From Candidatus Woesearchaeota archaeon (GTDB lineage: Archaea > Nanobdellota > Nanobdellia > Pacearchaeales > GW2011-AR1), in contig CAYIHY010000001.1 in assembly GCA_964363345.1 (NCBI GenBank), positions 7,483-71,482 of the forward strand: DNA of 64,000 bases. The letters run 5' to 3'. Made by a program: the position numbers and the translations under genes. The first letter of the stretch is position 1. Each line of letters opens with the position of its first letter. Below, one piece after another: positions 15,003-44,084 of the stretch. The notes beneath the pieces are model-generated. The model saw nothing but the letters and a program-made list of their open reading frames with translations. It ran no database searches and was not told where the DNA came from.

Positions 15003-15010
15003 AAATAAAA

Positions 15011-17349: not shown

Positions 17350-17365
17350 CACTGTTACATAATCT

Positions 17366-17375: not shown

Positions 17376-17393
17376 TTTTTTGCAATTTTTTAG

Positions 17394-30987: not shown

Positions 30988-32190
30988 ATGAAAATTGCCC
31001 ACGTAAATATGTTTTTTCTTCCAACATTCGGCGGAGTTGAACAGGTGATATATGAATTAGCCACAAGGCAGGTTAAAGATGGACACGAAGTTCATGTTTT
31101 TTGCTGCGATTCTGACAAAAATAACAGAATAGAAATTAAAGAAGAAATAATTGAAGGAATCCACGTTCACCGAATACCTTATTGGTTCAGACTTTCTTTG
31201 AATACTTTTGTATGGCTGTCATTCTTATGGAAATTTAAGGGGAAATTTGATATTGTTCACAGCCACGTTTCAGGGCATGATTACATTTTATTTGCCGGAT
31301 GGTTATCTAAACTGAAAGGAGCAAAATATATCCACACAACACATTGCCCGTGGACAGATGCTTCATTCAGGCCGAAAATTATTCGCCCATTTTTATTTTT
31401 GAATGATATTTTCATGAACAAATTTTCGTACAAATTTATTGATAAAATAATTGCAATCACCCCCTGGGAATTGGAAACTTTGGAAAAATATTCAGAAAAA
31501 GAAAAAATTGAAATTATCCCAAATGGAGTCGATAAAATTTTATTTAAAGAAGTTAGAAATAAGCAGTTCAAAAAAAATAATAATATCAAAGAAAAATTTT
31601 TGGTTTTATTTTTCGGAAGATTGAATCCGACAAAAGGTCCGGAGATGCTTGCTAAAGCAGCAATAAATATAATAAAAAAAAGAAAAGACATCGCATTTGT
31701 CTGGGTTGGTCCCGATGAAGGAAAAGCCGAGGAAGTTAAGGAATTAATTAAGAATTTTAAAAATATGAAATATCTCGGTCCGATAAAAGGAAAAGAAAAA
31801 ATTGCAGATATGTATCAATCTGCTGATGTTTATGTTCTTCCAAGTTATCGCGAAGGATTGCCCTTAACTTTATTTGAAGCAATGGCCTCGAGACTTCCTA
31901 TCGTTGCTTCGCCTGTCAACGGAGTGCCCTTTGAAATGAAAGAAAATGAAAACGGCTTTTTTTCAAATTACGGAGACATTGATTCTCTGGAAAAAAATAT
32001 AATTAAATTAATTGATAACCCAAAACTTGCAAAAAAAATCTCAGAAAATAACTTTAAAAAATCAAAAAATTATAACTGGGATGACATATACAAAAAATAC
32101 ATGAATGAATATAAAAAACTTTTAATCAGCCGTGAGCAGTATATCAGCGGGAAAATGAGTGTAAAGAAACCGGAGGTGTCGTTCAGGTGA
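30988..32190 (+). CDS. Glycosyltransferase, GT4 family (GT-B)
   Basis: C-terminal EGLPLTLFEAMASRLPIVAS (the EX7E region); 400 aa. Confidence 0.75.
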   Translation: MKIAHVNMFFLPTFGGVEQVIYELATRQVKDGHEVHVFCCDSDKNNRIEIKEEIIEGIHVHRIPYWFRLSLNTFVWLSFLWKFKGKFDIVHSHVSGHDYILFAGWLSKLKGAKYIHTTHCPWTDASFRPKIIRPFLFLNDIFMNKFSYKFIDKIIAITPWELETLEKYSEKEKIEIIPNGVDKILFKEVRNKQFKKNNNIKEKFLVLFFGRLNPTKGPEMLAKAAINIIKKRKDIAFVWVGPDEGKAEEVKELIKNFKNMKYLGPIKGKEKIADMYQSADVYVLPSYREGLPLTLFEAMASRLPIVASPVNGVPFEMKENENGFFSNYGDIDSLEKNIIKLIDNPKLAKKISENNFKKSKNYNWDDIYKKYMNEYKKLLISREQYISGKMSVKKPEVSFR

Positions 32191-33725
32191 AAGTAACACT
32201 AATCTCAACTTCAACTTACCCCTCTGATCAAGGAATAAGAACAATCTCAAGCATTTTAAAAAAAGAAGGGCATGATGTAAAAATAGTTTTCATGTCTCTC
32301 AGCGAAGATTATTCCGAAAATTATTCTTTGTCCGAACTTTATCAATTGCTTAATTTATGCAAGGGAAGTGGATTAATAGGAATAAATTCATTCGCTTCAA
32401 CTTCTCAAAGAGCATCAAGAATAATTTCTTTCCTTAAAAAAAAGCTTAATGTTCCTATTGTTTACGGGGGAGTCCATGCAACAATCTCTCCCGAAGATTG
32501 CATAAAAGTTTCTGACCTCGTCTGTATCGGAGAAGCAGAGGAAGCAATTATTGATTTAGTGAATGCAGCTGAAAAAAGAAAAAGTTTTGATAAAATAAAA
32601 AATCTCTGGATAAAAAAAGACGATAAAATAATAAAAAATCCAGTAAGATCTTTAGTTGACAATTTGGATTCAATTCCTCTCCCAGATTACAACATAGGAA
32701 CTCATTATGTGCTTAACAAAGGAAAAATAAGAAAATTCCGAGATGAAGATTTGGCAGGACAGGTATTCTTTTTAACAGGGAGAGGCTGTCCTTATGGATG
32801 TGACTATTGCAGCAACTCTTTTTTTAACAAGCTCTATGAGGGAAAAAGAAAAGCAATTTTGAGATGGCATTCCCCCGAGTATATAATTAAAGGAATTTTA
32901 GAATTAAAAAAGAAATTTCCAACCTCGTTAGGATTTTTTGATATAAGGGACGATACTTTTTCTCTGAGACCTTTGGAGGATATAAAAAAATTCTGCAAAT
33001 TGTATAAAGAAAATGTAAAAATGCGTTTCAAATGCCTGGCTGATCCGCATACGGTTACTGATGAAAAAATAAAATTGCTTATTGATGCAGGGTGCACTGA
33101 TATTATAATCGGAATTCAGGGAAGTGAAAAAACAAACCAGGAAATCTATCATCGCCATCAAAAAGATGAAGATGTTATTAGAACTGCTAAAATTCTAAAT
33201 AAGTATAAAAATAAACTTGCGGTAATGTACGATGTAATAACCTGCAATCCTTATGAAAAACCAGAACATATTTTGAGTTTAATCAATCTTCTGCAAAAAC
33301 TTCCAAAGCCGTATTATCTTTCAGTAAACAATTTAGTTTTTTTCCCGGGCTCACAATTATTCCGTAGAGCAACAGAGGATAAAATCCTGGAAAAAGAAAG
33401 AAATGCCTCTTACAAATTAAATTATTGGGATAGAGCAAAGCATATTCGCCTAAAGAAAAAAAATGCCTATCTGGTTTTAATTTTAAATTTAATGAGGGGA
33501 AGCGTTACAGAAACAAGATTCGGATTTATGCCATCATTCTTATTGAACGGGCTTCTTGTTCCAAAAAGAGTTAAGAAAAATTTAAGAAATCCATTTCCAA
33601 CTTATTTAATTTTAAACTTAGTAAGTATAGTTGATTTAATGAGAGAGAAAGTAGCAAAGCCGTTTTATCGCTCTCTGCCTGTTGATTTCAAGGTTTGGTA
33701 TGACAAAATAAGATATAGAGTTTAG
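32187..33725 (+). CDS. Cobalamin-binding radical SAM protein (class B)
   Basis: N-terminal MKVTLISTST...GHDVKIVFMS (B12-binding Rossmann); CxxxCxxC at GRGCPYGCDYCSNS; 512 aa; overlaps the upstream GT4 gene by 4 nt. Confidence 0.7.
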   Translation: MKVTLISTSTYPSDQGIRTISSILKKEGHDVKIVFMSLSEDYSENYSLSELYQLLNLCKGSGLIGINSFASTSQRASRIISFLKKKLNVPIVYGGVHATISPEDCIKVSDLVCIGEAEEAIIDLVNAAEKRKSFDKIKNLWIKKDDKIIKNPVRSLVDNLDSIPLPDYNIGTHYVLNKGKIRKFRDEDLAGQVFFLTGRGCPYGCDYCSNSFFNKLYEGKRKAILRWHSPEYIIKGILELKKKFPTSLGFFDIRDDTFSLRPLEDIKKFCKLYKENVKMRFKCLADPHTVTDEKIKLLIDAGCTDIIIGIQGSEKTNQEIYHRHQKDEDVIRTAKILNKYKNKLAVMYDVITCNPYEKPEHILSLINLLQKLPKPYYLSVNNLVFFPGSQLFRRATEDKILEKERNASYKLNYWDRAKHIRLKKKNAYLVLILNLMRGSVTETRFGFMPSFLLNGLLVPKRVKKNLRNPFPTYLILNLVSIVDLMREKVAKPFYRSLPVDFKVWYDKIRYRV

Positions 33726-34435
33726 TTAGCTAATCTAAAATCCTTCATATTTTCTTTATAATCGGTAGGATCTTTTACATCTGCCCAATAAAATCCTTCT
33801 TGTCTCAATCTGCATGCAAGGCAATAACCGCAGTGTTTTCCACGAATGCTTCTGTGACAACTGAAAGTTTCCTTAAAATTAATTTTTAATTTTTCTCCAA
33901 TTTTTACAATCTCTTCTTTGTCTTTTTTTATCAATGGGGCAATTATTTTAAAGTTCTTGTAACATCCTATTCGGCTTAATTTGTTCATTTGTTCAATAAA
34001 TGCCGGAGTCGTGTCAGGGTAATATTCTTTTCCTTCGTTTTTGAAACCAGTAAATAAATCGTATTTCTCTTTCTTTTTAATATAAAGAGATTCTGCAAGA
34101 GCAAGAGAATAAACAAGAAAAACAATATTTCTGCAGGGGACATATAATCTTTCAGATTCCTTAGAGCTATCCTTTAACTCTTTTCTTGTAACTTTTTTCG
34201 GTTTGTTGTCTAAAGAATTTGTAATATTCCCGAGCCATTTTAAGTCCACTTCAATAAATTCCGCAGAAATGTCATTCGCACACTTTTTAGAACAAGCCCT
34301 TTCCGAAGCAAGACTTTTTTGATTATAATTAAAGAAAACAATTTTGATATACTCATAATTTAACTTTTTTTTGACATAATGCGCAGTTACAACACTATCC
34401 AATCCTCCAGAGCACAATACTATCGCATTTTTCAT
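33722..34435 (-). CDS. QueC-like PP-loop ATPase (7-cyano-7-deazaguanine synthase family)
   Basis: IVLCSGGLDSVV (SGGxDS); YNQK; VPCRNIVFL; a C-terminal zinc cluster CHRSIRGKHCGYCLACRLR that parallels the QueC Cys4 site. Confidence 0.6.
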   Translation of the reverse strand: MKNAIVLCSGGLDSVVTAHYVKKKLNYEYIKIVFFNYNQKSLASERACSKKCANDISAEFIEVDLKWLGNITNSLDNKPKKVTRKELKDSSKESERLYVPCRNIVFLVYSLALAESLYIKKKEKYDLFTGFKNEGKEYYPDTTPAFIEQMNKLSRIGCYKNFKIIAPLIKKDKEEIVKIGEKLKINFKETFSCHRSIRGKHCGYCLACRLRQEGFYWADVKDPTDYKENMKDFRLAN

Positions 34436-34456
34436 AACTATTTGATTTAGATAATC

Positions 34457-34465
34457 TTTATAAAT
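34457..34465 (+). promoter_or_regulatory. Archaeal TATA-like box TTTATAAAT ~21-29 bp upstream of the ATG at 34486
   Basis: A/T box at leaderless-promoter spacing. Confidence 0.25.
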
Positions 34466-34485
34466 TTGTTTTATAAGGATAGTTT

Positions 34486-34680
34486 ATGAAAAAATTAGCA
34501 AACCAATTAAAAAAAGGGGATAAAATAATTTTAGCCTCTCAAGAGTATTCTATTGAAGAGCTGGAAATATCAGATATAGGGAAACATGGAATGAGAAAAG
34601 TAAGAATTGTTGCAGTATCTCCAAAACAAGAAAAAATTATTCTAATCCGTCCTGAAGATTATCCTTTTGAATCAAAATGA
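34486..34680 (+). CDS. Small hypothetical protein (64 aa, basic, possible SH3/KOW-like beta fold)
   Basis: ORF with an upstream TATA-like box; 4-nt overlap with the downstream GT2 gene suggests co-translation. No confident family. Confidence 0.25.
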   Translation: MKKLANQLKKGDKIILASQEYSIEELEISDIGKHGMRKVRIVAVSPKQEKIILIRPEDYPFESK

Positions 34681-35579
34681 TAGATGTAATAATAACCTCT
34701 TACAATGAACCAAACTCCACACTAAAAGCGGCACAGATATTTTTAAAGCAATATTCGGGGGAAGATTTGAGATTAATCGTCGTTGATCCCTTCGAAGAAG
34801 TAGGCGAATTTCTGAAGAAAAATATAAATGATAAAAGATTTATTTTTTATCTGGATCCGGGAGAAGGAAAATCATACGCGCTGAATTTATTATTCCAGGA
34901 GTTTCCAGGAACAGATAAAGATATCTTTATTTTAACTGACGGAGATGTTTATGTTTCTGAGAATACACTCCACGAAATATTGGGTACTTTTCAAAATCCA
35001 AAGATTGGTTGCATAACCGCAAAGCCAGTTTCAGTAGACTCGAAGGAGACCAAATTTGGCTACTGGTCTCATCTGCTTTTTTCTGGAGCTAATAAGGTCA
35101 GAAAAAAATTATCCCAAAAAGAGAAATTTTTTGAATGTTCGGGTTATCTATTTGCAATTCGTAAGGGAGTCATTATGGATTTTCCTTTAGATGCTTCGGA
35201 AGATTCTGTTATCCCATATTTATTTTGGAAAAAAGGATACAAGATAAAATATCTTTCAAATGTTGAAGTTTATGTAAAAAATCCAGATAATATTAAAGAC
35301 TGGAAGAATCAAAAAATCAGGAACATAAAAGGACATGAAAATTTAAATAAGTTATTCCCCGAAATGCCAAGAACAAAATCTTTCCTTAATGAAATAAAAT
35401 TTGGGCTTTTTCACTCTTTGTTCTATCCAAGAAACTTAAAAGAATTGAATTGGACAGCAGAGTTATTTGGTGCAAGATATTCTATTTACAAAAAAGCTTT
35501 TAATGATATAAAACAGAAAACAAATTATTCTGATGGGTGGAGAGAAACAGAGATAGAATCAACAAAGCCCTTAGACTAA
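34677..35579 (+). CDS. Glycosyltransferase family 2
   Basis: IDVIITSYNEPNS N-terminus; ILTDGD (DxD); 300 aa. Confidence 0.65.
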   Translation: MIDVIITSYNEPNSTLKAAQIFLKQYSGEDLRLIVVDPFEEVGEFLKKNINDKRFIFYLDPGEGKSYALNLLFQEFPGTDKDIFILTDGDVYVSENTLHEILGTFQNPKIGCITAKPVSVDSKETKFGYWSHLLFSGANKVRKKLSQKEKFFECSGYLFAIRKGVIMDFPLDASEDSVIPYLFWKKGYKIKYLSNVEVYVKNPDNIKDWKNQKIRNIKGHENLNKLFPEMPRTKSFLNEIKFGLFHSLFYPRNLKELNWTAELFGARYSIYKKAFNDIKQKTNYSDGWRETEIESTKPLD

Positions 35580-36268
35580 TTTTTATTTCTATACATTACC
35601 AGTCGATTAAGATAAATAAAAGGAATATCAACTATTCCGACAAGCCACTTTATCATTAAAGTTCCTATAATCAAAGGCAAAAGTGGCTGAATCCCATAAA
35701 ACGCGATTGTTATAAAAATAATCGTGTCTACTGCCATTGAAGGAATTGAAGAAAAAATATTCCTCATCCATAAATGTCTCCCATTGGTTCTTTTCTTAAA
35801 CCAAGAGAAGAGATAGGCATCTATATTTTCGCTGATTAAAAATGCAATCCATGAAGCAAGCATTATCCTTGGAGCAAACCCCAGTATTTTAGTAAAGATT
35901 TCTTGATCGGTCCAAAAAGGGGCAGGCTCTAATGAGATTGCTATAAAAATAAAGAGGGCAGTAGAAATCTGAGTAAGAAATGCAATAAAAATCATCTTTT
36001 GTGTTTCTCTTCTGCCAAATTTCTCATTCACAATATCTGTTAAGAGAAAAGTTACAGAAAAAATTAAAGTTGCAGATGTTGCAAAAAAGGTAACAGATCC
36101 AAAGTCGAAGCTAACTATCTTATAAGCGATTATATTGCTGATTAAAATAAAAGCAATGTATAAACCAATAAGCGCATCAGGCTTATTATATCTCCGAACA
36201 TACCACGAACCAAATAATGAAAATGCGGTCGTTAACACAATCCATAGAATAATTAGTAATAACTCCAT
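35576..36268 (-). CDS. YhhQ/DUF165 (VUT-family) queuosine-precursor transporter-like membrane protein
   Basis: FLLTDIVNEKFG and IDAYLFSWFKKRTNGRHLWMRNIFSSIPSMAVDTIIFITIAF align with E. coli YhhQ blocks (FLATDLTVRIFG; LDVHVFNRLRQ..RWWLAPTASTLFGNVSDTLAFFFIAF). Confidence 0.7.
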   Translation of the reverse strand: MELLLIILWIVLTTAFSLFGSWYVRRYNKPDALIGLYIAFILISNIIAYKIVSFDFGSVTFFATSATLIFSVTFLLTDIVNEKFGRRETQKMIFIAFLTQISTALFIFIAISLEPAPFWTDQEIFTKILGFAPRIMLASWIAFLISENIDAYLFSWFKKRTNGRHLWMRNIFSSIPSMAVDTIIFITIAFYGIQPLLPLIIGTLMIKWLVGIVDIPFIYLNRLVMYRNKN

Positions 36269-36269
36269 T

Positions 36270-36710
36270 TTATTTAATCAAATTATTACCCGGAGTTTTA
36301 TCAGTATCTTTAAATTTCTTTAATTTCTTTTTTAGGTCTTCAAATGTTTTAACGATATCTACAGAATGTATTACTATCGCACTTAAATTTTCAAGAGCAT
36401 CTTCAATCGGTTCATCTTCTTTAATCCCGAGTATTGGAATTCCTTTTGCATAAGCATATCCCAATTCCCATGCAGTTCCAGCCCCAACATGCAATCCGTT
36501 CAGATTAGCAATTACTAAAGAAACATTTTCAAATCCTTGAATTATATCTTCTTTGAATATCCTTTCTACATCATCCATGCACTCCACTAAGCCCGCATCT
36601 CGATGAGGTAAATAAGTCTCAAAACCAATATCTTCTGCTAGTTTTGCTAATTTCTCTAAAAATTCCCTTTCACTTTCTGCACACAATTTTCCCGCAATAT
36701 ATACTTTCAT
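36270..36710 (-). CDS. Nucleoside 2-deoxyribosyltransferase-like (PF05014-like) Rossmann protein
   Basis: MKVYIAGKL at the N-terminus and GTAWELGYAYAKGIPILGI; 146 aa. Confidence 0.45.
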   Translation of the reverse strand: MKVYIAGKLCAESEREFLEKLAKLAEDIGFETYLPHRDAGLVECMDDVERIFKEDIIQGFENVSLVIANLNGLHVGAGTAWELGYAYAKGIPILGIKEDEPIEDALENLSAIVIHSVDIVKTFEDLKKKLKKFKDTDKTPGNNLIK

Positions 36711-36837: not shown

Positions 36838-38805
36838 ATGATGTATAATTGGAAAAGAAATTGCAGGTATTTTAAAGGGACAACTCCTTGCGATATGGTT
36901 CTTGAAAATCAAGTTGATAATTGTGAGGGATGTTCTTTTTGTGAACCAATTAAAAAAATATTAATTATTAAATATGGTGCTGCAGGAGACATTCTTCGGA
37001 CAACACCGATACTTTCTGCAATAAAAAAGAAATTCGGAGAGAATACTCAAATTTATTGGATTACTAATGAAAGAGATATAATGTTAATTAAAGATAATCC
37101 CGAGATAGATTACAAACTTGTTTTTAATCATCAAAATATCAGGAGATTAAATTTAATAAATTTTCATGCATTATTTAGTTTAGAGGCGGATAAAGAAATT
37201 TTAGCAGTTGCTAATTCAATAAATGCTGAAAAAAAATATGGATTTTTTTTAGACGAAGGAGATAACCCTGCATGTTTTAACAAAGGGGCAGAAGGTTACT
37301 TAGAAAAAATATGGTCTAATAGATTAAATAAAGGAAATAGAAGAACTTACCAAGAATTTCTGTTTGAAATATGCGAATTAGAATATCATAAAGAAGATTA
37401 TTCTTTTTATCTTGATAATTATGAAAAAAAATTATCAGAACAATTAAAAAAAGAAAACTCTCCGATCATCGGAGTGAGTATTGCAGTAGGAAGTAAATGG
37501 CCTTCAAAGCATATTTCAAATGAAAAAAAAATTGAATTGATAGAAAAACTACACAAACTGAATTTAGGAAAAATAATGATTATAAGTGGAATTCAGGAAA
37601 AAGAACTTAAAGAAAATATTCTAAACAAATTAAAGGAAAAGGGAATAAATGATATAATTTCTTGGGAAGGAAATACAACTGCGGATCATATAGCAGAAGT
37701 TGAATCTTGTGATACAGTTATTTGTGGAGACAGTTTATCTATGCATATCGCTCTTGCATTAAAAAAGAAAGTAATCGGATTATTCTTATGCACCCCCCCA
37801 TGGGAAATAGAAGATTATGGGAGGATGACCAAAATTACAAGCCCATTACTAGATAAGTATTTTTTTACAGATCAGTATGAAGAAGAATTAGTGAATAGTA
37901 TAAGTGTAGAAGAAATAATAAATGAATTAGAACTAAAAAAAATTTTTAGAAATATAAATGAAATTAAGGACTTGATAACTAATCTTGAAAAGAAAGGAAA
38001 AAAAGTAATGATAACAAATGGGTGTTTTGATTTGCTTCATGCAGGGCATATAACCTTTCTCGAATATGCAAAGAAACAATGTGATGTTTTGATTGTTGCT
38101 ATTAACTCAGATAAATCTGTGCGAGCATACAAAGGACAAAATCGTCCAATAAATAACGAAGATTTCAGAGCATATCTGCTTTCAAAAATTAAAGATGTAG
38201 ATTATGTCTATATATTTGATGAAACAAAATTTGAAGGAACGCTTAGAGAATTAAAACCAAAATTATATGCAAAAGGAAGAGATTATACTTTGGAAACAAT
38301 AGAACAAACCGAAAGAGAAATAATTGAAAGTTATGGAGGAAAAATAATTATTGTTAAACATCCTATCGAAATTACGACTTCAGAAATTATAAAAAAAATG
38401 AATGAACCTGAAGTTAGAGTGGTTAATGCAATAATAAAAAATCCTTTGAATGAGACTGTTCTTGTTATAAAAAGAAAAAATGAGAGTATCCATGAAGGAA
38501 AATGGGCTTTTCCCGGAGGAATTGTTAAAGAGGGAGAATCAAATGAAATCGCATTAAAAAGAGAAATTCAAGAAGAAGTTGGATTAAAAATAAATAAAAT
38601 TATTAAAAAAATTTCAGAATATACCTACACGCGACCTGACGGAAAATTCACTTTAGGGATTTCTTATTTAGTTGAAGCGGAAGGATATGTCATTATAGAT
38701 AAAAATGAAGTTTCAGATAGCAAATGGGTTACAGTTGAAGAATTTGAAAATTTAGACCACATTGAAGGATTAGAAAAAGAAATATTCGATGCATTTTATT
38801 TGTAA
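36838..38805 (+). CDS. Tri-domain fusion: GT9 heptosyltransferase-like + RfaE-domain-II-like cytidylyltransferase (heptose-1-P adenylyltransferase-like) + Nudix hydrolase
   Basis: GT9: KILIIKYGAAGDILRTTPILSAI ... VICGDSLSMHIALALKKKVIGLF. Adenylyltransferase: KVMITNGCFDLLHAGHITFLEYAKKQCDVLIVAINSDKSVRAYKGQNRP. Nudix: GKWAFPGGIVKEGESNEIALKREIQEEVGL. Confidence 0.7.
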   Translation: MMYNWKRNCRYFKGTTPCDMVLENQVDNCEGCSFCEPIKKILIIKYGAAGDILRTTPILSAIKKKFGENTQIYWITNERDIMLIKDNPEIDYKLVFNHQNIRRLNLINFHALFSLEADKEILAVANSINAEKKYGFFLDEGDNPACFNKGAEGYLEKIWSNRLNKGNRRTYQEFLFEICELEYHKEDYSFYLDNYEKKLSEQLKKENSPIIGVSIAVGSKWPSKHISNEKKIELIEKLHKLNLGKIMIISGIQEKELKENILNKLKEKGINDIISWEGNTTADHIAEVESCDTVICGDSLSMHIALALKKKVIGLFLCTPPWEIEDYGRMTKITSPLLDKYFFTDQYEEELVNSISVEEIINELELKKIFRNINEIKDLITNLEKKGKKVMITNGCFDLLHAGHITFLEYAKKQCDVLIVAINSDKSVRAYKGQNRPINNEDFRAYLLSKIKDVDYVYIFDETKFEGTLRELKPKLYAKGRDYTLETIEQTEREIIESYGGKIIIVKHPIEITTSEIIKKMNEPEVRVVNAIIKNPLNETVLVIKRKNESIHEGKWAFPGGIVKEGESNEIALKREIQEEVGLKINKIIKKISEYTYTRPDGKFTLGISYLVEAEGYVIIDKNEVSDSKWVTVEEFENLDHIEGLEKEIFDAFYL

Positions 38806-38861: not shown

Positions 38862-39731
38862 ATGATAAAAATAGTTTTTTGTGATATAGATGGATGTATG
38901 GGAGATTTTGTAAAGCCAGAGTATCCTCTAAAACAGGATTTGTATGAAAATAGAGAACAATTAGAAGAAATACAAAAAAAAGCTTATCAGATTTCTCTTG
39001 TAGAACCAGAAATTTTATTTGGGGTTTGTACAGGTAGGTCATTTTATCAAGCAGACCATATCATGAAGAAAACAGGATGTCAAGGACCATCTATTTTTGA
39101 AATGGGAAATGTTATTTTTGATCCAAAAGAAGGAGTTTATAACTTGTTTGAAAAATATGACCGATTTAAAGCAAATATCGAATTGCTAAATGCCTTTATT
39201 CAATGGAAAAATAAAATGAAAGGAAGTGAAGAACAACTAAAAAGGAAGTTTCCAAACTCAGGATTAAGACAGATGAAAGATAGAACATGTATGCTGACTT
39301 ACGAATTTGAAGAAAAAATAGGGGAAGAGTTATACCAACATATTTTAGAGATTATACCATCTCAATTTAAAGAAGCGATAGATATGTCTCTTTTAAGAGT
39401 TTCTTTGTCTAAAAATGCAATAGACATACTTCCCAATATTACAAAAGGGGATGCAGTTACTTATTTGATTAATCTCTATGGGATATCTAAAGAAGAAGTT
39501 TTAGCGATAGGAGATTCAAGTCATAGCGATTTGGATTTACTTAAATCTGCCGGGCTGGTTGCTTGTCCTGATAACGCAGATTTAGAGTTAAAGAAGTATG
39601 TTTTTGAACATAATGGATTTGTTGTTCCAAACAGTTCAAATAAAGGGCTGATAAATATTCTTGACTTAGTCGAGAATCTTATTAAATTTACCAACTTAAA
39701 AAATGAATCTAAACTTGTTAGACAGATTTAA
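38862..39731 (+). CDS. HAD-superfamily phosphatase, subfamily IIB-like (Cof/MPGP-like)
   Basis: IVFCDIDGCMGDF (motif I DxD) and C-terminal AIGDSSHSDLDLLKSAG (motif IV); 289 aa. Confidence 0.5.
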   Translation: MIKIVFCDIDGCMGDFVKPEYPLKQDLYENREQLEEIQKKAYQISLVEPEILFGVCTGRSFYQADHIMKKTGCQGPSIFEMGNVIFDPKEGVYNLFEKYDRFKANIELLNAFIQWKNKMKGSEEQLKRKFPNSGLRQMKDRTCMLTYEFEEKIGEELYQHILEIIPSQFKEAIDMSLLRVSLSKNAIDILPNITKGDAVTYLINLYGISKEEVLAIGDSSHSDLDLLKSAGLVACPDNADLELKKYVFEHNGFVVPNSSNKGLINILDLVENLIKFTNLKNESKLVRQI

Positions 39732-40698
39732 AGAAAGAAAAATTTTAGTAGTGGGAGATTATTGTATTGACAAATTTTATTTTGGAGAACCAAGAGGAAT
39801 TTCTCCTGAAGCACCAATCTTAAGAAATGTGGGGAGCAGGAATGATATAAAAATAAATCCAGGAATGGCGGGAAATATCGCTGCTGGAGTTAATGCTCTT
39901 GGAGCAAAATGTTATGTGGTGGGGGTTATTGGAGGTGATGGAGACAGTGCGAGTAGAGAAATGATAAATATTTTTAACAAAATGGGAGTAAATACAGGAG
40001 GAATGATTTTACAAAAAGATAGGACTACTCCAGAATTTATTCGCATAGTTTCAGGAGGTATAAAATACCCTTCTCAACAGATAATCAGACACGACGTAGA
40101 AAATACTGCTCCAATAACTAAGTCAACAATAAAAAAACTAGAATCTTTTATTTATAATCAAATAAATGAAATTGGGGGATTTGATGCAATAATTGTGGGG
40201 GACTATAACGAATTTGGAGAAGGGATAATTACAAATTATTTGCTCAATAAACTAATAGAAATTTCTAGCGATAAAAGAATATTTTCTATCGGAGATTCAA
40301 GAAAAAATTTTAAATCTTTTCATGATTTTACTTGCATAAAACCAAATCTTAACGAAGCAAGACAATTAGAAAAAACAAAAGGTATGTCTTTAGATAATCT
40401 TGCCCTTAAAATTACCAAGGATTTAAAATTAAAGGCAGTTTTGATTACTAAAGATAAAGAAGGAATGTATCTCCTAACAAATTCTGGAATAAAAAAAGAT
40501 TTTCCTGCTTATGCTAAGGAAGTAGTAGATGTTACGGGAGCAGGAGATAGTGTAACAAGTGCATTTACACTTGCATTAACTTCAGGATTTGGTTATGAAC
40601 AATCTGCACAATTAGCAAGTTATGCCGCAGCGATCTCTGTATCCAAGCCAGGAGTTAGCGTTGTTTCATTGGAAGAATTAAAAAAATTTACACTTTAA
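39703..40698 (+). CDS. PfkB-family sugar kinase, RfaE domain I-like (D-glycero-beta-D-manno-heptose 7-phosphate kinase candidate)
   Basis: ILVVGDYCIDKFYFGE (compare RfaE ILVVGDVMLDRYW.G) and VDVTGAGDSVTSAF (the PfkB DxTGAGD signature). Confidence 0.75.
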   Translation: MNLNLLDRFKERKILVVGDYCIDKFYFGEPRGISPEAPILRNVGSRNDIKINPGMAGNIAAGVNALGAKCYVVGVIGGDGDSASREMINIFNKMGVNTGGMILQKDRTTPEFIRIVSGGIKYPSQQIIRHDVENTAPITKSTIKKLESFIYNQINEIGGFDAIIVGDYNEFGEGIITNYLLNKLIEISSDKRIFSIGDSRKNFKSFHDFTCIKPNLNEARQLEKTKGMSLDNLALKITKDLKLKAVLITKDKEGMYLLTNSGIKKDFPAYAKEVVDVTGAGDSVTSAFTLALTSGFGYEQSAQLASYAAAISVSKPGVSVVSLEELKKFTL

Positions 40699-40706
40699 AA
40701 AAGAAA

Positions 40707-41201
40707 ATGAGAGATAAAATAAGAACATTAGATGAATTAAAAGAAATAACTTCTAAGTATAAACAAGAATCCAAAAAAATAGGAACAACAAATGGTTATT
40801 TTGATTTGCTTCATATAGGCCACATTTATATGCTTGAGAGTGCTAAATCTTTAACCGACATATTAATTGTTTTAATAAATAGCGATGATTCTACAAAGAA
40901 ATTAAAGGGTTCAAAAAGACCAATAGTCCCAGAAAAAGAAAGAGCAGAGATGCTTTCTTCATTAGAATGTGTAGATTATGTTACAATATTTGATGGAGAT
41001 AACCCTTTAGATTACATACGAGAATTAAAACCTGATATCCACATAAAAGGAGGAATTTTTGAACAGGACAGGATAAAAACAGAAAGAGATTTAATCGAAT
41101 CCTGGGGTGGAAGACATATAACTCTCCCCTTAGTTGAAGGATATTCTACAACCAATCTTATAGATAAAATAATTAAGGCTTATGAAAACAATTCATCATA
41201 A
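40707..41201 (+). CDS. Cytidylyltransferase-family protein, RfaE domain II-like (heptose 1-phosphate adenylyltransferase candidate)
   Basis: IGTTNGYFDLLHIGHIYMLESAKSLTDILIVLINSDDSTKKLKGSKRP; 164 aa. Confidence 0.8.
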   Translation: MRDKIRTLDELKEITSKYKQESKKIGTTNGYFDLLHIGHIYMLESAKSLTDILIVLINSDDSTKKLKGSKRPIVPEKERAEMLSSLECVDYVTIFDGDNPLDYIRELKPDIHIKGGIFEQDRIKTERDLIESWGGRHITLPLVEGYSTTNLIDKIIKAYENNSS

Positions 41202-41214: not shown

Positions 41215-42255
41215 ATGGAAAATAAAAAAAATTTATTTGATAAAACAGAATTAAAAACTATTCCCCTTAGTTTAAGAGAAAGCAAATCTTCAATAGAAAA
41301 TATAGTTGTTAATCCAAATTCAAAATTATATCCTGCCTCAGATGACAGGATAGAACATATTGCTGAACAAATAATTTCTGCAAGAAAAAAAAATAAACCT
41401 GTAATATTAACTTATGGAGCACATTTAATAAAAAATGGACTAGGGTTAGTTTTAAGGAAAATGATTGAAGAAAATATAGTTACTCATCTGGCAACAAATG
41501 GTGCAGGCTCTATCCACGACTGGGAATTTGCCTTTCAGGGTAAGACTGAAGAAGATGTTAAAAAAGCAATTTCCGTAGGGCAATTTGGTTTAGGGGAAGA
41601 AACTGGAAAATATATCAACTTAGCTCTTATTTCTGGAGCAGAAAGAGGAATTGGATATGGAGAATCAATTTGTGAAATGATTCATAATGAAAAATTAATT
41701 CTCTCCGGTATAAAAAATGATAAATTAGAAAGGCTATCAATAAAAAGAGAAGATGTTTCTTTGTTGCATCCTTACAAACATTATTCTGTCCAAGAGGCTT
41801 CATTCGGAAAAATTCCCTTAACAATTCATCCCTGTTTCGGTCAGGACATAATTTACACACACCAATTAAGTGATGGTGCATCAATTGGAAAATGCGCAGA
41901 AATAGATTTTTTAAAATTTGTTGATAGTGTAAGTAAACTAGAAAACGGGGGGGTTTATCTTTCTGTGGGTTCTGCAATAATGTCTCCGATGATTTTTGAA
42001 AAATCTTTATCTATGGCGAGAAATATTGCGATTCAAAAAGGAAAAACCATTGAAGATTTTATGATTGTTGTGAATGATATTCAGGAAGGGAAATGGGACT
42101 GGAGTAAAGGGGAACCTCCAAAAGATAACCCTGCTTATTATCTACGTTTTTGCAAAACTTTTAATCGTATGGGTGCAAGAGAACTGCATTATATTCAAGT
42201 GGATAATAGAAATTTCATTTTATCCCTTTACCAATCTATAAAAAATAAAAAATGA
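41215..42255 (+). CDS. Hypothetical Rossmann-like protein (weak resemblance to deoxyhypusine-synthase-like fold); a candidate for the missing isomerase step
   Basis: 346 aa; YGAHLIKNGLGLVLRKMIEENIVTHLATNGAGSIHDWEF. The family assignment is uncertain. Confidence 0.3.
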   Translation: MENKKNLFDKTELKTIPLSLRESKSSIENIVVNPNSKLYPASDDRIEHIAEQIISARKKNKPVILTYGAHLIKNGLGLVLRKMIEENIVTHLATNGAGSIHDWEFAFQGKTEEDVKKAISVGQFGLGEETGKYINLALISGAERGIGYGESICEMIHNEKLILSGIKNDKLERLSIKREDVSLLHPYKHYSVQEASFGKIPLTIHPCFGQDIIYTHQLSDGASIGKCAEIDFLKFVDSVSKLENGGVYLSVGSAIMSPMIFEKSLSMARNIAIQKGKTIEDFMIVVNDIQEGKWDWSKGEPPKDNPAYYLRFCKTFNRMGARELHYIQVDNRNFILSLYQSIKNKK

Positions 42256-42350: not shown

Positions 42351-44084
42351 ATGGAAGAAATAAGCGGGGAAATTAAGCCTTCTGCTAATGAAAAAGAGAT
42401 TGAAAAAGGAAAATCAAAAATAAAAAATTTCTTTTTGGGTTGGGTAAAAGATAATTATGATAAAATTTTCATTGGGATTCTAATTCTTGCTTTTATAATT
42501 CGTCTTTGGATTTTTTTCAAAACAATGAATCAGCCATTCTGGTGGGATGAAGCAGATTATCTTTCTGCCGCTAAAAATTGGGGATTAGGATTGGACATTC
42601 GCGATGTTTGGTATTACCGAAGAGGCTTTTTATTCCCTTTAATTGGAGCATTGATATTCCGATTGGGGCTGGGAGAGATTGGAATGAGATTTTTAGTTGT
42701 TCTTTTCTCAACAGGGATAGTTGCAGTTTCATATTTTATAATTTCAAAGATGTTCAATAAAAAACTCGCTTTGATTACAAGCCTAGTTCTAAGTTTATCT
42801 TGGATATTATTATTTTTTACAGGAAGAGTTCTGACTGATATTCCTGCCGCATTTTTTGCCTTATTGTCTCTTTTGTTTTTCTGGAAAGGCTATGTATTAA
42901 AAGAAGGAAATAAATTTCTTTACCTATTCGGTTTATTTCTGGCACTCGCAGTATTAACAAGAATGCAGTCTTTTATGTTCATTCCCCCATTTTTAATTTT
43001 TATTTTAATTCGAGAAAAATCAAAAATATTCAAAAATAAACATCTGTGGATTACGTTAGGAATATTTTTATTATTACTTGTTCCCCAATTTGTTTTATAT
43101 TCTATGCATTATGGTAATGCTTTTAACGATTTAGCTGCCCATTATCTAGGAATCGGCGCCTCATCTAATTCAACTTATGCTGGAGACCAAAGAGCATTTT
43201 CCTTAGCAACTTTTAATTATTTTGCAAATCTCCCTTACATGCTTTCCACAATCATTTTTGGCCTATTAATAATCGGGGCGATATATTTCTTTACAGATTT
43301 ATTCATCGGCATTGATAAAATTTTCAAAAATGAAATCCTCCAAAAAAAATTATTTGTCTTAATGTGGGTTCTTTCCTTATTTTTAATTATGGGTTATATC
43401 GGTTCAGTTTCTTATGTAGAACAGAGGTATATCACTGCAGGATTGCCATTTTTATTCATGATTGCAGTTTTCCCAATTATTTTTGTTAGTGACTTTTTAA
43501 TGAAACAGAATAAACTAAAAAAAATAATTCCCGGAATTCTTTTTATTGTTTTGATTGCTTTGATGATTCCGAATTTGATATTATCAAATTCTCTTTTGAA
43601 TCAGCAGGCAGACTCATATTCGCAGGTTAAAAAAGTTGGGGAGCTTATGAAATCAGATTCTAATACTCGGGATATAATTATGTCGACCTCTCTTCCCCAA
43701 ATAACTTATTATTCTGAACGTTCAACGTATCCCTATGATATCCAACATGATGGTGTCGCTAAAGGGGATAAGTCCCTATTAAACTATAGCGATGGACAGA
43801 AAGGATTTGAAGAATTCTTGAAGAATAAACAACCTAAGTATTTGATGGCTTCTGTTTTTGAAACTGATCCAGACTGGATTTTAAAAAAAGGTACTTATAA
43901 CGAGGATAACTATATTATCTTACCCTTTTTTAATTCATCAATGTCTTATAACTCCCAAGGACAGATAACTTCGTTAGACTTAAATCAAGAAGTAAAAAAA
44001 GATGGTATGACTCTAACCTTATTCTATCCTAAGACTTCCGGGCAGATTAATGGAATATTTATTTACAAAGTGGAATATTCTTAA
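42351..44084 (+). CDS. GT-C-fold membrane glycosyltransferase of the GT39/GT83 type (PMT/ArnT-like dolichyl- or undecaprenyl-phosphate-sugar-dependent transferase) with a C-terminal soluble domain
   Basis: N-terminal FWWDEADYLSAAKNWGLGLDIR (the extracytoplasmic D-E loop motif of PMT/ArnT); GRVLTDIPAAFFALLSLLFFWKGY; >10 TM helices; 577 aa. Confidence 0.55.
   Translation: MEEISGEIKPSANEKEIEKGKSKIKNFFLGWVKDNYDKIFIGILILAFIIRLWIFFKTMNQPFWWDEADYLSAAKNWGLGLDIRDVWYYRRGFLFPLIGALIFRLGLGEIGMRFLVVLFSTGIVAVSYFIISKMFNKKLALITSLVLSLSWILLFFTGRVLTDIPAAFFALLSLLFFWKGYVLKEGNKFLYLFGLFLALAVLTRMQSFMFIPPFLIFILIREKSKIFKNKHLWITLGIFLLLLVPQFVLYSMHYGNAFNDLAAHYLGIGASSNSTYAGDQRAFSLATFNYFANLPYMLSTIIFGLLIIGAIYFFTDLFIGIDKIFKNEILQKKLFVLMWVLSLFLIMGYIGSVSYVEQRYITAGLPFLFMIAVFPIIFVSDFLMKQNKLKKIIPGILFIVLIALMIPNLILSNSLLNQQADSYSQVKKVGELMKSDSNTRDIIMSTSLPQITYYSERSTYPYDIQHDGVAKGDKSLLNYSDGQKGFEEFLKNKQPKYLMASVFETDPDWILKKGTYNEDNYIILPFFNSSMSYNSQGQITSLDLNQEVKKDGMTLTLFYPKTSGQINGIFIYKVEYS

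What the first reader, a model, noticed from the sequence alone, without database searches (positions are those of the whole stretch)
33722..36710. QueC-like enzyme, YhhQ preQ0/preQ1-type transporter and a nucleoside deoxyribosyltransferase-like protein interleaved with glycosyltransferases
A QueC-family PP-loop/Zn protein (33722..34435), a YhhQ-family transporter (35576..36268) and a PF05014-like nucleoside-processing protein (36270..36710) lie within 3 kb. They are separated only by a GT2 gene and a 64-aa ORF. This may be a 7-deazaguanine (archaeosine precursor) salvage unit that happens to sit in the island. Alternatively the QueC homolog (chemistry: acid to amide to nitrile) and the AsnB homolog at 18428 could act on sugar carboxylates such as uronic acids to give amidated or nitrile-bearing sugars. 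Either explanation is of interest in a genome that appears reduced.
Basis: inference. Interest (0 to 1): 0.6.

Follow-up and report, generated by a model that had tools for sequence, protein, structure and literature searches.

The report
Conserved archaeal QueC–mini-IF5A–glycosyltransferase gene module
The three genes are real, but two of them belong to a five-gene module, undescribed in the literature I could search and conserved across hundreds of tiny symbiotic (DPANN) archaea, that pairs a QueC-type enzyme with a 64-residue copy of the translation factor aIF5A that keeps its modifiable lysine, so the module may be a new protein- or nucleobase-modification system rather than simple vitamin-like salvage.

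Summary
All ORFs and family calls in the finding are confirmed. The functional unit is different from the one proposed.

Across 77 distinct related loci (QueC 39-80% identical, Woese-/Pacearchaeota-type DPANN archaea) the order GT9 | NDT-like | GT2 - 64-aa ORF | QueC-like is nearly invariant:
- the 64-aa ORF is adjacent in 64/64 loci
- GT2 in 48/49
- NDT-like in 39/43
- GT9 in 31/33

Its hypusine-position lysine is invariant. It shares a conserved 50-nt bidirectional TATA promoter with the QueC-like gene.

YhhQ is a bona fide, widespread housekeeping transporter of these archaea. It sits in the module in only 3 lineages, at two positions, each time directly downstream of the NDT-like or QueC-like gene.

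The QueC-like protein forms its own subfamily. It falls below the TIGR00364 cut-off, lacks the His of YxQxHxxE and has YPDT instead of YPDC. No queD, queE or tgt gene lies nearby in the window; in the related loci a QueD-motif scan found nothing and the few with Pfam-annotated genes show none of them.

Best reading (inferred, about 0.4): a cytoplasmic 7-deazaguanine-linked modification system acting on the mini-aIF5A lysine. Rival readings remain open: salvage plus coincidence, tRNA modification, and a glycan or small-molecule pathway. The function is untested.

The parts
33722..34435 (-). QueC-family PP-loop/Zn ATPase of a distinct DPANN subfamily. Its signature is SGGxDS, YxQ(x)5E without His, VPCRN, GFKxEGxExYPDTT and C-x8-CGxCLxCRLR, plus a conserved C-terminal FYW...DPTxY extension.
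   Evidence: AlphaFold2 model pLDDT 88; Foldseek gives QueC 3BL5 at 1.8e-11 and Cap9 9NTO at 1.4e-10.
34436..34485 (.). 50-nt divergent intergenic spacer. A palindromic TATA element (TTTATAAA, 34457-34464) lies about 25 nt from both start codons. Inferred to be a bidirectional archaeal promoter producing near-leaderless transcripts.
   Evidence: Of 63 distinct homologous spacers the median length is 50 nt and all carry the TATA-like core. The consensus is AAAcTTATAAAGtTTAT. Promoter function is inferred, not tested.
34486..34680 (+). Mini-aIF5A: a 64-aa stand-alone homologue of the aIF5A/eIF5A N-terminal (EF-P domain I-like) beta-barrel. Lys33 is invariant at the hypusine position, in the loop S-D-I-G-K-[HQ]-G-x-x-K-x-R.
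   Evidence: Profile against PDB: aIF5A 1BKB at E=2e-7, with K33 aligned to the hypusine Lys. AlphaFold2 pLDDT 91. Foldseek top 50 hits are all eIF5A/aIF5A/EF-P domain I, TM 0.73-0.92. 923 homologues, all about 64 aa among the 120 listed. Adjacent to QueC-like in 64/64 loci.
34677..35579 (+). Soluble GT2 (GT-A) glycosyltransferase with no TM segment. Its start overlaps the mini-aIF5A stop (ATGA).
   Evidence: Present next to the mini-aIF5A in 48/49 loci. No PDB sequence match.
35576..36268 (-). YhhQ/COG1738 queuosine-precursor (preQ0/preQ1-type) transporter. A lineage-specific insertion into the module, co-directional with the NDT-like gene and 1 nt downstream of it.
   Evidence: TIGR00697 at 146 bits against a cut-off of 51. 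861 DPANN homologues at 70-84% identity. In the module only in the window/L086, L053 and L009. Elsewhere it lies in unrelated contexts.
36270..36710 (-). Nucleoside 2-deoxyribosyltransferase-superfamily (PF05014) protein. The Glu at the position that aligns with the NDT catalytic Glu is invariant (E82, in G-A-G-T-A-W-E). The position that is Asp in the NDT motif (IDAG in 7M5H) is Gly.
   Evidence: In the module in 39/43 loci.
36838..38805 (+). GT9 (heptosyltransferase-like, GT-B) fused to an HldE-domain-II-like adenylyltransferase and a NUDIX domain, with an N-terminal Cys cluster. The GT9 part is the conserved module member.
   Evidence: GT9 present in 31/33 loci. The fusion partners vary between loci.
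38862..41201 (+). Accessory sugar-activation genes: an HAD-IIB phosphatase, a PfkB kinase (HldE domain I-like, 239 bits) and an adenylyltransferase (HldE domain II-like, 171 bits). Together they form an ADP-heptose-type donor pathway.
   Evidence: Present in some but not all loci.
42351..44084 (+). PMT_2 / GT-C membrane glycosyltransferase. It often follows GT9 in related loci.
32187..33725 (+). B12-binding radical SAM enzyme convergent with QueC-like (stops overlap). It is a frequent but not constant neighbour: 17 of 44 loci, with a GT4 in its place in 17 others.

Best explanation
**Shown**
- The QueC-like and NDT-like genes belong to a deeply conserved, co-regulated cytoplasmic module: QueC-like <-> mini-aIF5A-GT2, then NDT-like, then GT9. 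It is found in Woese-/Pacearchaeota-type DPANN archaea.
- YhhQ is a separate housekeeping 7-deazaguanine-precursor importer. It has occasionally been inserted directly downstream of a module gene, on the same strand.

**Inferred mechanism**
- The mini-aIF5A is the acceptor or carrier. Its invariant loop-tip Lys33 sits at the position that is post-translationally modified in eIF5A/aIF5A, and the equivalent loop-tip residue is modified in EF-P. I propose it is modified by enzymes of the module.
- The QueC-family enzyme adenylates a 7-deazaguanine-type carboxylate (CDG). It then couples it to an amine, as Cap9 and QatC do, or makes preQ0 for the pathway.
- The NDT-like enzyme is probably an N-glycosidase acting on a nucleoside or nucleotide. 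It would free or recycle the base. YhhQ imports the base where it is present in the module.
- The soluble GT2 and the ADP-heptose-type GT9 add sugars.
- The biological role of the product (translation-related or envelope-related) is unknown.
For: **Synteny**
- 77 distinct loci with QueC at 54-80% identity were compared. The mini-aIF5A is adjacent in 64/64, GT2 in 48/49, NDT-like in 39/43 and GT9 in 31/33. The other flank of QueC varies.
- The same five-gene order holds at 45-46% QueC identity (L091, L093).

**Co-regulation**
- The spacer is a conserved 50 nt with one central palindromic TATA core in 63/63 distinct spacers.
- The mini-aIF5A stop overlaps the GT2 start.

**Mini-aIF5A**
- Profile E=2e-7 to aIF5A, with invariant K33 on the hypusine Lys.
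- AlphaFold2 pLDDT 91. Foldseek hits include EF-P domain I bound to EarP and IF5A bound to DHS, so this domain alone is what known modifying enzymes recognise.

**QueC-like**
- The clade keeps SGGxDS, the Zn site and the counterparts of Y35, R99, Y131 and Y189 of E. coli QueC. In the window protein the Y189 counterpart is His194.
- It lacks the His of YxQxHxxE and has the YxQ(x)5E spacing also seen in Cap9.
- QueC-family enzymes are now known to ligate CDG to protein amines (PMC13329287; 10.1101/2025.04.06.647259).

**Links to nucleobase metabolism**
- An independent recurrence of a PF06508 + PF05014(+PfkB) neighbourhood exists in Proteobacteria (89% of 'cluster 4').
- YhhQ has been recruited directly downstream of NDT-like (window, L053) and of QueC-like (L009).

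**Cellular location**
- All five module proteins lack TM segments.
Against: - There is no direct evidence of any modification.
- Cap9 and QatC target an N-terminal glycine, not a lysine, and the mini-aIF5A starts MKK.
- The Cap9 HMM scores this clade no better than canonical QueCs.
- The motif deviations (no His, YPDT) also occur in other QueC-like lineages of unknown function.
- The module always lies inside a large envelope-glycosylation island that contains AglB, a flippase and a GT-C enzyme. The glycosyltransferases could therefore serve glycan synthesis.
- All loci come from one archaeal clade, so part of the synteny could reflect shared descent.
- I could not establish whether a full-length aIF5A, DHS, arcTGT, QueD or QueE exist in these genomes.
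Confidence: 0.4

Rival explanations
1. Salvage plus coincidence. YhhQ imports a 7-deazaguanine base. The NDT-like enzyme frees such bases from scavenged nucleosides or nucleotides. QueC converts CDG or ADG to preQ0 for arcTGT and archaeosine. The glycosyltransferases and the 64-aa ORF are unrelated neighbours.
For: - YhhQ is a genuine TIGR00697 member, and it is widespread and highly conserved in the clade.
- In L089 it overlaps a Trm5/TYW2-like tRNA methyltransferase gene.
- The QueC-like clade keeps the residues essential for preQ0 synthesis.
- There is no queD or queE next to it, which fits salvage of a late intermediate.
- DPANN archaea are auxotrophic symbionts (general knowledge).
Against: - It does not explain the near-invariant interleaving with mini-aIF5A-GT2 and GT9 down to 45% identity, or the shared 50-nt promoter.
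- YhhQ, the one unambiguous salvage gene, is outside the module in about 96% of loci.
- If preQ0 itself is imported, QueC is not needed.
- The QueC-like protein is below the equivalog cut-off (138 against 150 bits) and lacks the canonical His.
Confidence: 0.15
2. Nucleic-acid modification. The module builds a glycosylated 7-deazaguanine derivative in tRNA, rRNA or DNA, and the mini-aIF5A serves as the RNA-binding or targeting subunit.
For: - The aIF5A/EF-P N-domain loop contacts the tRNA CCA end on the ribosome (structures among the hits).
- Eukaryotic queuosine is glycosylated by one GT-A and one GT-B enzyme (recalled from the literature, not tested here).
- GAT-QueC-like proteins of about 500 aa share the YxQ(x)5E/no-His feature. 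That they act on tRNA-bound preQ0 is recalled from the literature.
- Both QueC-like and mini-aIF5A are strongly basic, pI 9.3.
Against: - No TGT/DpdA-type transglycosylase is in the window or in the loci with Pfam-annotated genes; the other related loci were not screened for one.
- High pI is common to many proteins of this AT-rich genome.
- No tRNA or Rfam element is nearby.
Confidence: 0.15
3. Glycan or small-molecule pathway. The QueC-like enzyme amidates or nitrilates a sugar or other carboxylate, or supplies preQ0 that a glycosyltransferase N-glycosylates. The NDT-like enzyme releases a base or trims a nucleotide-sugar. The product ends up in the envelope glycan.
For: - The module is embedded in a roughly 56-kb glycosylation island with AglB, a flippase, a GT-C enzyme, AsnB and many B12-radical SAM enzymes.
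- PMT_2/GT-C usually follows GT9.
- The PF06508 superfamily already contains sugar amidotransferases (the WbpG group).
- Two precedents are recalled from the literature and were not tested here: an NDT-family hydrolase working with a glycosyltransferase (BlsM/MilB with CGA synthase), and N-glycosylated preQ0 (huimycin, dapiramicin).
Against: - It gives no role to the mini-aIF5A, which is the gene most tightly linked to QueC-like (64/64, shared promoter).
- The QueC-like protein resembles canonical QueC and Cap9, not the WbpG-type cluster.
- GT2 and GT9 are soluble and have no membrane anchor.
Confidence: 0.2
4. Anti-virus defence system of the Qat / type IV CBASS kind: a QueC-family enzyme with a partner protein and a nucleotide-degrading NDT-like effector.
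For: - QueC-family enzymes and NDT/SLOG-fold proteins occur in defence systems.
- The NUDIX domain hits a PADLOC candidate model.
Against: - PADLOC has no match for the mini-aIF5A, GT2 or NDT-like proteins.
- The QatC hit is weak (28 bits), and the Cap9 model scores canonical QueCs equally well.
- The module keeps a fixed order in one archaeal clade, and the numbers of homologues found for QueC-like, mini-aIF5A and YhhQ are of the same order (608, 923, 861; different E-value cut-offs). Defence genes are usually patchy and mobile.
Confidence: 0.05

Closest known systems
[quoted passage not shown]
   Same: - Same fold and size.
- Shares the SGGxDS PP-loop, VPxRN, an aromatic-P-D motif, the conserved Lys and the C-x8-C-x2-C-x2-C Zn site.
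- Best structural match.
   Different: - Only 25-30% identical.
- Below the TIGR00364 cut-off (138 against 150 bits).
- The His of YxQxHxxE is missing and there is one extra residue.
- YPDT instead of YPDC.
- A clade-specific basic segment (residues about 70-97) and a C-terminal FYW...DPTxY tail.
- No queD or queE neighbour seen (window and the loci with Pfam-annotated genes; a QueD-motif scan of all loci found nothing); canonical QueCs have one in about 30% of cases. Instead it is always next to the mini-aIF5A.
Cap9 (type IV CBASS) and QatC (QatABCD): QueC-family protein deazaguanylases
   Same: - A QueC-family ATP-dependent enzyme encoded next to a dedicated partner-protein gene.
- Cap9 also has YxQ(x)5E without His.
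- The Foldseek E-value to Cap9 (1.4e-10) is close to that for QueC.
   Different: - Those enzymes modify an N-terminal glycine of a CD-NTase or of QatB in bacterial defence islands.
- Here the partner is an aIF5A-like barrel starting MKK. No CD-NTase, Cap10, QatA or QatD is present.
- There is no preferential score to the Cap9 HMM.
- Ligation to a protein is not shown here.
PF06508 'cluster 4' with PfkB-PF05014 fusion proteins (Libby et al. 2026, PMC13329287)
   Same: A QueC-like gene is consistently next to an NDT-family (PF05014) protein and a PfkB kinase. This suggests a shared nucleobase- or nucleotide-level chemistry.
   Different: - It is proteobacterial and has a different Cys motif (CH-x5-CxxCxGCxK) and YGQ(x)6E.
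- No aIF5A-like gene or glycosyltransferases are reported.
- Its function is also unknown.
aIF5A/eIF5A hypusination (DHS) and EF-P loop-tip modifications (EpmA beta-lysylation, EarP rhamnosylation)
   Same: - Same beta-barrel domain, with a conserved basic loop-tip residue at the same position.
- Domain I alone is sufficient for recognition by EarP and DHS (structures hit).
- EF-P modification genes are often encoded next to efp (general knowledge).
   Different: - The mini-aIF5A lacks the C-terminal OB domain.
- Its loop flanks differ: S-D-I-G-K-[HQ]-G against S-[KS]-[TP]-G-K-H-G.
- The neighbouring enzymes (QueC-like, GT2, NDT-like, GT9) are of families never linked to IF5A or EF-P. No paper in the searchable library mentions IF5A together with QueC.
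YhhQ / COG1738 (QPTR) preQ0/preQ1 transporter
   Same: Full-length match above the equivalog cut-off, with about 6 TM segments. An archaeal preQ0-salvage role was proposed in PMC5372724.
   Different: Substrate specificity in DPANN archaea is unknown. It could be preQ0, CDG or another 7-deazaguanine.
Nucleoside 2-deoxyribosyltransferase superfamily (NDT; DNPH1/Rcl; MilB/BlsM CMP N-glycosidases)
   Same: PF05014 fold. An invariant Tyr4 and an invariant Glu82 that aligns with the Glu of the NDT motif. Profile E=1e-13 to NDT 7M5H, and a weak match to MilB 4JEN.
   Different: - The residue that is Asp in the IDAG motif of 7M5H is an invariant Gly.
- The resulting G-x-G-T-x-x-E resembles the phosphate-binding LOG motif. 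This is recalled from the literature; no PF03641 hit was found, so it was not confirmed.
- The substrate is unknown.

Membership tests
Canonical QueC (preQ0 synthase) | PP-loop SGGxDS and C-x8-C-x2-C-x2-C zinc site | tested here: met
   SGGLDS at residues 9-14. C193, C202, C205 and C208 are invariant in 25 clade members.
Canonical QueC (preQ0 synthase) | YxQxHxxE motif (Libby et al. 2026) | tested here: not met
   The sequence is Y37-N-Q-K-S-L-A-S-E45. The His is absent and the spacing is one residue longer, throughout the clade.
Canonical QueC (preQ0 synthase) | VPxRN and YPDC motifs; Tyr after the first Zn Cys | tested here: inconclusive
   VPCRN is present. YPDT replaces YPDC and is invariant in the clade. 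The residue after C193 is Tyr in over 90% of the clade but His in the window protein.
Canonical QueC (preQ0 synthase) | Score above the NCBIfam equivalog cut-off (TIGR00364) | tested here: not met
   138.4 bits against a cut-off of 150.3. The Pfam family cut-off is passed (163 against 22).
Canonical QueC (preQ0 synthase) | Genomic association with queD/queE (about 30% of canonical members) | tested here: not met
   No QueD/PTPS motif in any fetched locus. No QueD, QueE, TGT or FolE Pfam hit in the 64-kb window or in the loci with Pfam-annotated genes.
Canonical QueC (preQ0 synthase) | Converts CDG to preQ0 (complements delta-queC) | not testable with these tools
   Needs an APB-gel complementation assay or an in-vitro assay.
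QueC-family protein deazaguanylases (Cap9/QatC) | Encoded beside a dedicated substrate-protein gene | tested here: inconclusive
   A dedicated small-protein gene is adjacent in 64/64 loci with a shared promoter. That it is a substrate has not been shown.
QueC-family protein deazaguanylases (Cap9/QatC) | Substrate N-terminal glycine; association with CD-NTase/Cap10 or QatA/B/D | tested here: not met
   The mini-aIF5A starts MKK. No PADLOC hit to partners, and the QatC model scores 28 bits only.
aIF5A / eIF5A | N-terminal SH3-like barrel with the G-K-H-G hypusine loop | tested here: met
   K33 and G35 are invariant; His is replaced by Gln in many members.
aIF5A / eIF5A | C-terminal OB-fold domain (about 130 aa in total) | tested here: not met
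   The protein is 64 aa, and the 120 listed of 923 homologues are 63-75 aa. It is therefore a paralogue, not a translation factor of normal architecture.
YhhQ / COG1738 queuosine-precursor transporter | Full-length match above the TIGR00697 cut-off; polytopic membrane protein | tested here: met
   146 bits against 51; PF02592 at 164 bits; about 6 hydrophobic segments.
Nucleoside 2-deoxyribosyltransferase (PF05014) | Pfam gathering score; a Glu aligned with the Glu of the NDT motif | tested here: met
   49.7 bits against 28.8. Invariant E82 aligns with the Glu of 7M5H and 6EVS. That this Glu is the catalytic nucleophile in NDTs is recalled from the literature.
Nucleoside 2-deoxyribosyltransferase (PF05014) | Asp six residues before the Glu (said to contact the deoxyribose; role recalled from the literature) | tested here: not met
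   The position is an invariant Gly76: V-G-A-G-T-A-W-E against I-D-A-G-V-A-S-E in 7M5H.
ADP-heptose pathway (HldE) + GT9 heptosyltransferase | HldE domain I and II equivalog scores; GT9 Pfam match | tested here: inconclusive
   Domain I-like scores 239 against 345, and domain II-like 171 and 159 against 181.5 (all below cut-off). GT9 PF01075 scores 41 against 22. No GmhA-type isomerase was found in the window.

The most novel reading that the evidence does not exclude
An archaeal lysine-directed nucleobase-protein conjugation system. The QueC-family enzyme ligates 7-carboxy-7-deazaguanine to the hypusine-position Lys33 of a stand-alone aIF5A N-domain (expected +176.03 Da). The adduct or the protein is then glycosylated by the GT2 and by the ADP-heptose-type GT9. 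This would be a third route of IF5A/EF-P-type loop modification, and the first deazaguanylation found outside bacterial anti-phage defence.
Probability: 0.2. Interest if true: 0.9.

Novelty: new variant of a known kind. Interest (0 to 1): 0.7.

Why it matters
**If the module is a functional unit**
- The synteny and the shared promoter argue strongly that it is. Hundreds of DPANN genomes would then carry a QueC-family enzyme currently annotated as 'preQ0 synthase' that probably does something else, or something additional.
- They would also carry an unrecognised 64-residue aIF5A paralogue, annotated 'hypothetical'.

**Links to current questions**
- How far the QueC scaffold has been repurposed. 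Protein deazaguanylation was discovered only in 2025-26, and only in bacterial defence.
- How IF5A/EF-P-type loop residues are modified across life.
- How genome-reduced symbiotic archaea obtain and use 7-deazaguanines.

**Testability**
- The prediction can be tested directly by co-expression in E. coli followed by intact-mass MS.

**If the mundane reading is right**
- The result still corrects the picture. YhhQ, not the QueC/NDT pair, is the independent salvage gene.

Tried and rejected
1. **tRNA and Rfam scans of the window.** Nothing found, so there is no riboswitch or tRNA link.
2. **Genome-contig scan with the single QueC protein.** A genome-wide que/arcTGT inventory was therefore impossible.
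3. **The 346-aa ORF 41215-42255 as a deoxyhypusine synthase for the mini-aIF5A.**
   - The DHS similarity is marginal (19.6 bits; PDB E about 1).
   - The protein is a GSU2086-family member at 302 bits.
   - It is present in only 4 loci.
   - Not used as evidence.
4. **Special affinity of the QueC-like clade to Cap9.** Rejected: canonical QueCs score 60-108 bits on the same PADLOC model, against 78-86 bits for the clade.
5. **Motif deviations (no His, YPDT) as proof of a new function.** Weakened: other QueC-like lineages show them too.
6. **PDB sequence search for GT2 and GT9.** Uninformative.
7. **QueD-motif and small radical-SAM screens of all loci.** No candidates.
8. **Literature searches.** DPANN+archaeosine, DPANN+QueC and IF5A+QueC found no description of the module.
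9. **Defence-system reading.** Judged unlikely.

Full report
**Observation**

The ORFs named in the finding exist exactly as described.
- 33722-34435(-) is a full-length PF06508 QueC-family protein (163 bits). It has the PP-loop SGGLDS and the zinc motif C193-x8-C202-x2-C205-x2-C208.
- 35576-36268(-) is a YhhQ/COG1738 protein well above the equivalog cut-off (TIGR00697, 146 against 51 bits).
- 36270-36710(-) passes the PF05014 threshold (49.7 against 28.8 bits).
- Between them lie a GT2 (34677-35579) and a 64-aa ORF (34486-34680).
- The window has about 31% G+C and no tRNA or Rfam element.
- Positions 1 to about 56.6 kb form a large archaeal glycosylation island. It contains a flippase, aminotransferases, dehydratases, GT2, GT4, GT9 and GT-C enzymes, six B12-radical SAM enzymes, AsnB and AglB/STT3.
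- The best homologues of every gene tested are from Nanoarchaeota, Woesearchaeota and Pacearchaeota MAGs, which are DPANN archaea.

**What the unit really is**

I looked at where homologues of the QueC-like protein are encoded.
- A near-complete 652-kb contig (76% identity) and a Pacearchaeota contig (62%) show the same neighbours: a 64-aa ORF, GT2, the PF05014 protein and a GT9. Neither has YhhQ.
- A metagenome scan with a QueC-like alignment gave 80 more loci. I mapped the window's proteins onto all of them with phmmer.
- Among 77 distinct loci:
  - the 64-aa ORF is immediately upstream of, and divergent from, QueC-like in 64 of 64 loci with enough flank
  - GT2 follows in 48 of 49
  - the NDT-like gene in 39 of 43
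  - GT9 in 31 of 33
- The gene on the other side of QueC-like varies: B12-rSAM in 17 loci, GT4 in 17, others in 10.
- A toxin-antitoxin insertion in one lineage splits the cluster without dispersing it.
- Two much more distant members (45-46% identity, from the exhaustive representative search) show exactly the same five-gene order.

The conserved unit is therefore GT9 | NDT-like | GT2 - 64-aa ORF | QueC-like. A PMT_2/GT-C enzyme and ADP-heptose-type activation genes often follow.

**YhhQ**

- YhhQ has 861 close homologues in the same archaeal clade, at 70-84% identity. That is more conserved than QueC-like.
- On long contigs it lies in unrelated places. In one case it overlaps a Trm5/TYW2-like tRNA methyltransferase gene.
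- It is inside the module only in three lineages:
  - the window (and its 100%-identical copies)
  - L053
  - L009
- These three cases occupy two different positions:
  - directly downstream of and co-directional with the NDT-like gene: a 1-nt gap in the window and 72 nt in L053
  - 2 nt downstream of QueC-like in L009
- YhhQ is thus a housekeeping importer, not a core member. Two apparently independent placements directly downstream of module genes are more than I would expect by chance. My rough estimate is an expectation of 0.1-0.2 events. I read this as a hint that the module uses a YhhQ substrate, that is, a 7-deazaguanine base.

**The 64-aa ORF**

- A family alignment of 69 distinct sequences shows invariant S29, K33, G35 and K38, and near-invariant R40. 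The motif is E-x-S-D-[IV]-G-K-[HQ]-G-x-x-K-x-R.
- A profile search of the PDB finds only IF5A proteins at the top (P. aerophilum aIF5A, E=2e-7). K33 aligns with the lysine that is hypusinated.
- An AlphaFold2 model (pLDDT 91) is a small beta-barrel, with K33 in the loop between strands 19-29 and 38-44.
- All 50 best Foldseek matches are eIF5A/aIF5A N-domains or EF-P domain I (TM 0.73-0.92). They include EF-P domain I bound to the rhamnosyltransferase EarP and IF5A bound to deoxyhypusine synthase.
- The family has 923 members; the 120 listed are all about 64 aa. They are annotated 'hypothetical' or 'EF-P/IF5A'.
- It is therefore a stand-alone aIF5A N-domain paralogue that keeps the modifiable lysine and lacks the OB domain.

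**Co-regulation**

- The QueC-like and mini-aIF5A start codons are 50 nt apart. A palindromic TTTATAAA lies 25 nt from each.
- In 63 distinct homologous spacers the median length is again 50 nt, and every one carries the core AAAcTTATAAAGtTTAT.
- I infer a single bidirectional archaeal TATA promoter driving near-leaderless transcripts.
- The mini-aIF5A stop overlaps the GT2 start (ATGA).
- These features are hard to reconcile with accidental neighbourhood.

**The QueC-like enzyme**

- It is 25-30% identical to B. subtilis and Erwinia QueC. It falls just below the TIGR00364 equivalog cut-off (138 against 150 bits).
- An exhaustive search of 1.8 billion representatives finds only 22 at E<=1e-30. 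After that comes a broad plateau of canonical QueCs and roughly 500-aa fusion proteins that look like GAT-QueC, at 1e-20 to 1e-25. It is a separate subfamily.
- I compared it with the experimentally refined canonical signature (PMC13329287):
  - It keeps SGGxDS, VPxRN, the Zn site and the counterparts of the essential Y35, R99 and Y131.
  - The counterpart of Y189 is Tyr in over 90% of the clade but His in the window protein.
  - It lacks the His of YxQxHxxE, with one extra residue. That variant is also present in Cap9 and in the GAT-QueC-like proteins.
  - It has YPDT for YPDC.
  - It has clade-specific conserved segments: a basic stretch at about residues 70-97 and a C-terminal FYW...DPTxY tail.
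- These deviations occur in other lineages too, and the Cap9 HMM does not prefer this clade. They are suggestive, not decisive.
- No queD, queE, tgt or folE gene is present in the window or in the loci with Pfam-annotated genes, and a QueD-motif scan of all fetched loci found none.

**The NDT-like protein and the glycosyltransferases**

- The PF05014 family profile matches NDT 7M5H at E=1e-13. An invariant Glu82 aligns with the Glu of the NDT motif, which I recall as the catalytic nucleophile. The preceding Asp of that motif is an invariant Gly, giving G-A-G-T-A-W-E.
- From memory this resembles the phosphate-binding motif of LOG-type nucleotide N-glycosidases. There is no Pfam LOG hit, so I treat it as a lead only.
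- GT2, GT9, QueC-like, NDT-like and mini-aIF5A all lack TM segments.
- In the window, GT9 is fused to an HldE-domain-II-like adenylyltransferase and a NUDIX domain. It is followed by an HAD phosphatase, an HldE-domain-I-like kinase and a second adenylyltransferase. The likely donor is therefore an ADP-heptose-type sugar.
- Libby et al. (2026) report that another QueC-like cluster in Proteobacteria is next to a PfkB-PF05014 fusion in 89% of cases. This is an independent recurrence of the QueC-like/NDT-like pairing.

**Interpretation**

Shown:
- the conserved, co-regulated five-gene module
- the identity of its parts
- the peripheral status of YhhQ

Inferred, at about 0.4 confidence: the mini-aIF5A lysine is the acceptor or carrier for a modification made by the module.
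- The QueC-family enzyme activates a 7-deazaguanine carboxylate. It either couples it to an amine, as Cap9 and QatC do, or supplies preQ0.
- The NDT-like enzyme handles the base-sugar bond.
- The two soluble glycosyltransferases add sugars.

Rival readings:
- salvage plus coincidence (0.15)
- a glycosylated 7-deazaguanine in nucleic acid, with the mini-aIF5A as the RNA-binding subunit (0.15)
- a defence system (0.05)

Main caveats:
- All loci come from one archaeal clade.
- There is no biochemical evidence.
- I could not inspect whole genomes for arcTGT, QueD/E, DHS or a full-length aIF5A.

**Novelty**

- No paper in the searchable library links IF5A with QueC or describes QueC in DPANN cellular genomes.
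- The most recent survey of the QueC superfamily does not mention this clade.
- I rate it a new variant of known kinds of system (QueC-family repurposing; IF5A/EF-P loop modification). Interest is 0.7.

Noticed in passing
window 34436-34485 (and 63 homologous spacers in L001-L085): A 50-nt divergent spacer with a single palindromic TATA core (AAAcTTATAAAGtTTAT), equidistant at about 25 nt from both start codons. Its length and sequence are conserved across the clade. It is a candidate bidirectional archaeal promoter with leaderless transcripts.
   Followed up: yes
window 41215-42255 (+); also L005, L008, L009: A 346-aa GSU2086-family protein (NF052581, 302 bits) with only marginal similarity to deoxyhypusine synthase. 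It lies in the same cluster as the aIF5A-like mini-protein in 4 lineages. Its function is unknown, and a link to the lysine loop is tempting but unsupported.
   Followed up: partly
window 36838-38805 (+): A triple fusion of GT9, an HldE-domain-II-like adenylyltransferase and NUDIX. It has an N-terminal Cys cluster (C9, C18, C29, C32, C35) that recurs in the distant L093 GT9. The domain composition varies between lineages: GT9 alone, GT9+NUDIX, or all three.
   Followed up: partly
window 9366-11162, 21062-23683, 32187-33725, 45485-46927, 46924-48318, 50486-51943: Six B12-binding radical SAM enzymes in one glycosylation island. One is fused to a DegT-type aminotransferase (873 aa). This suggests extensive radical methylation or rearrangement of sugars.
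   Followed up: no
window 13668-18431 (+): A run of genes: a DUF4147/MOFRL protein, an SDR, a 3-dehydroquinate-synthase-like protein fused to a glyoxalase domain (possibly a sugar-phosphate cyclase), and a GAPDH-like protein. This is unusual content for a glycan island.
   Followed up: no
window 53852-56653 (-) and 57600-63919: AglB/STT3 oligosaccharyltransferase (933 aa) marks the end of the island. Beyond it lie ordinary genes of the IF-2B family, prefoldin and EMC3/TMCO1-like proteins.
   Followed up: no
window 23885-24361 (+): A homologue of the bacterial L-alanine exporter AlaE (PF06610, 115 bits) in a DPANN archaeon.
   Followed up: no
L004 7504-9077: ParE-like and HEPN/nucleotidyltransferase toxin-antitoxin pairs are inserted between the mini-aIF5A and GT2 in a Pacearchaeota contig. 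The module remains otherwise intact.
   Followed up: no
L089 7324-8690: On a 576-kb Woesearchaeota contig, YhhQ overlaps the end of a Trm5/TYW2-like methyltransferase gene and sits next to MetRS. This is a tRNA-related context for the transporter.
   Followed up: no
protein P0417: A member of the mini-aIF5A family on a 754-kb contig is labelled 'Candidatus Paceibacterota bacterium' in NCBI. This is probably a taxonomic mislabel of a Pacearchaeota genome.
   Followed up: no
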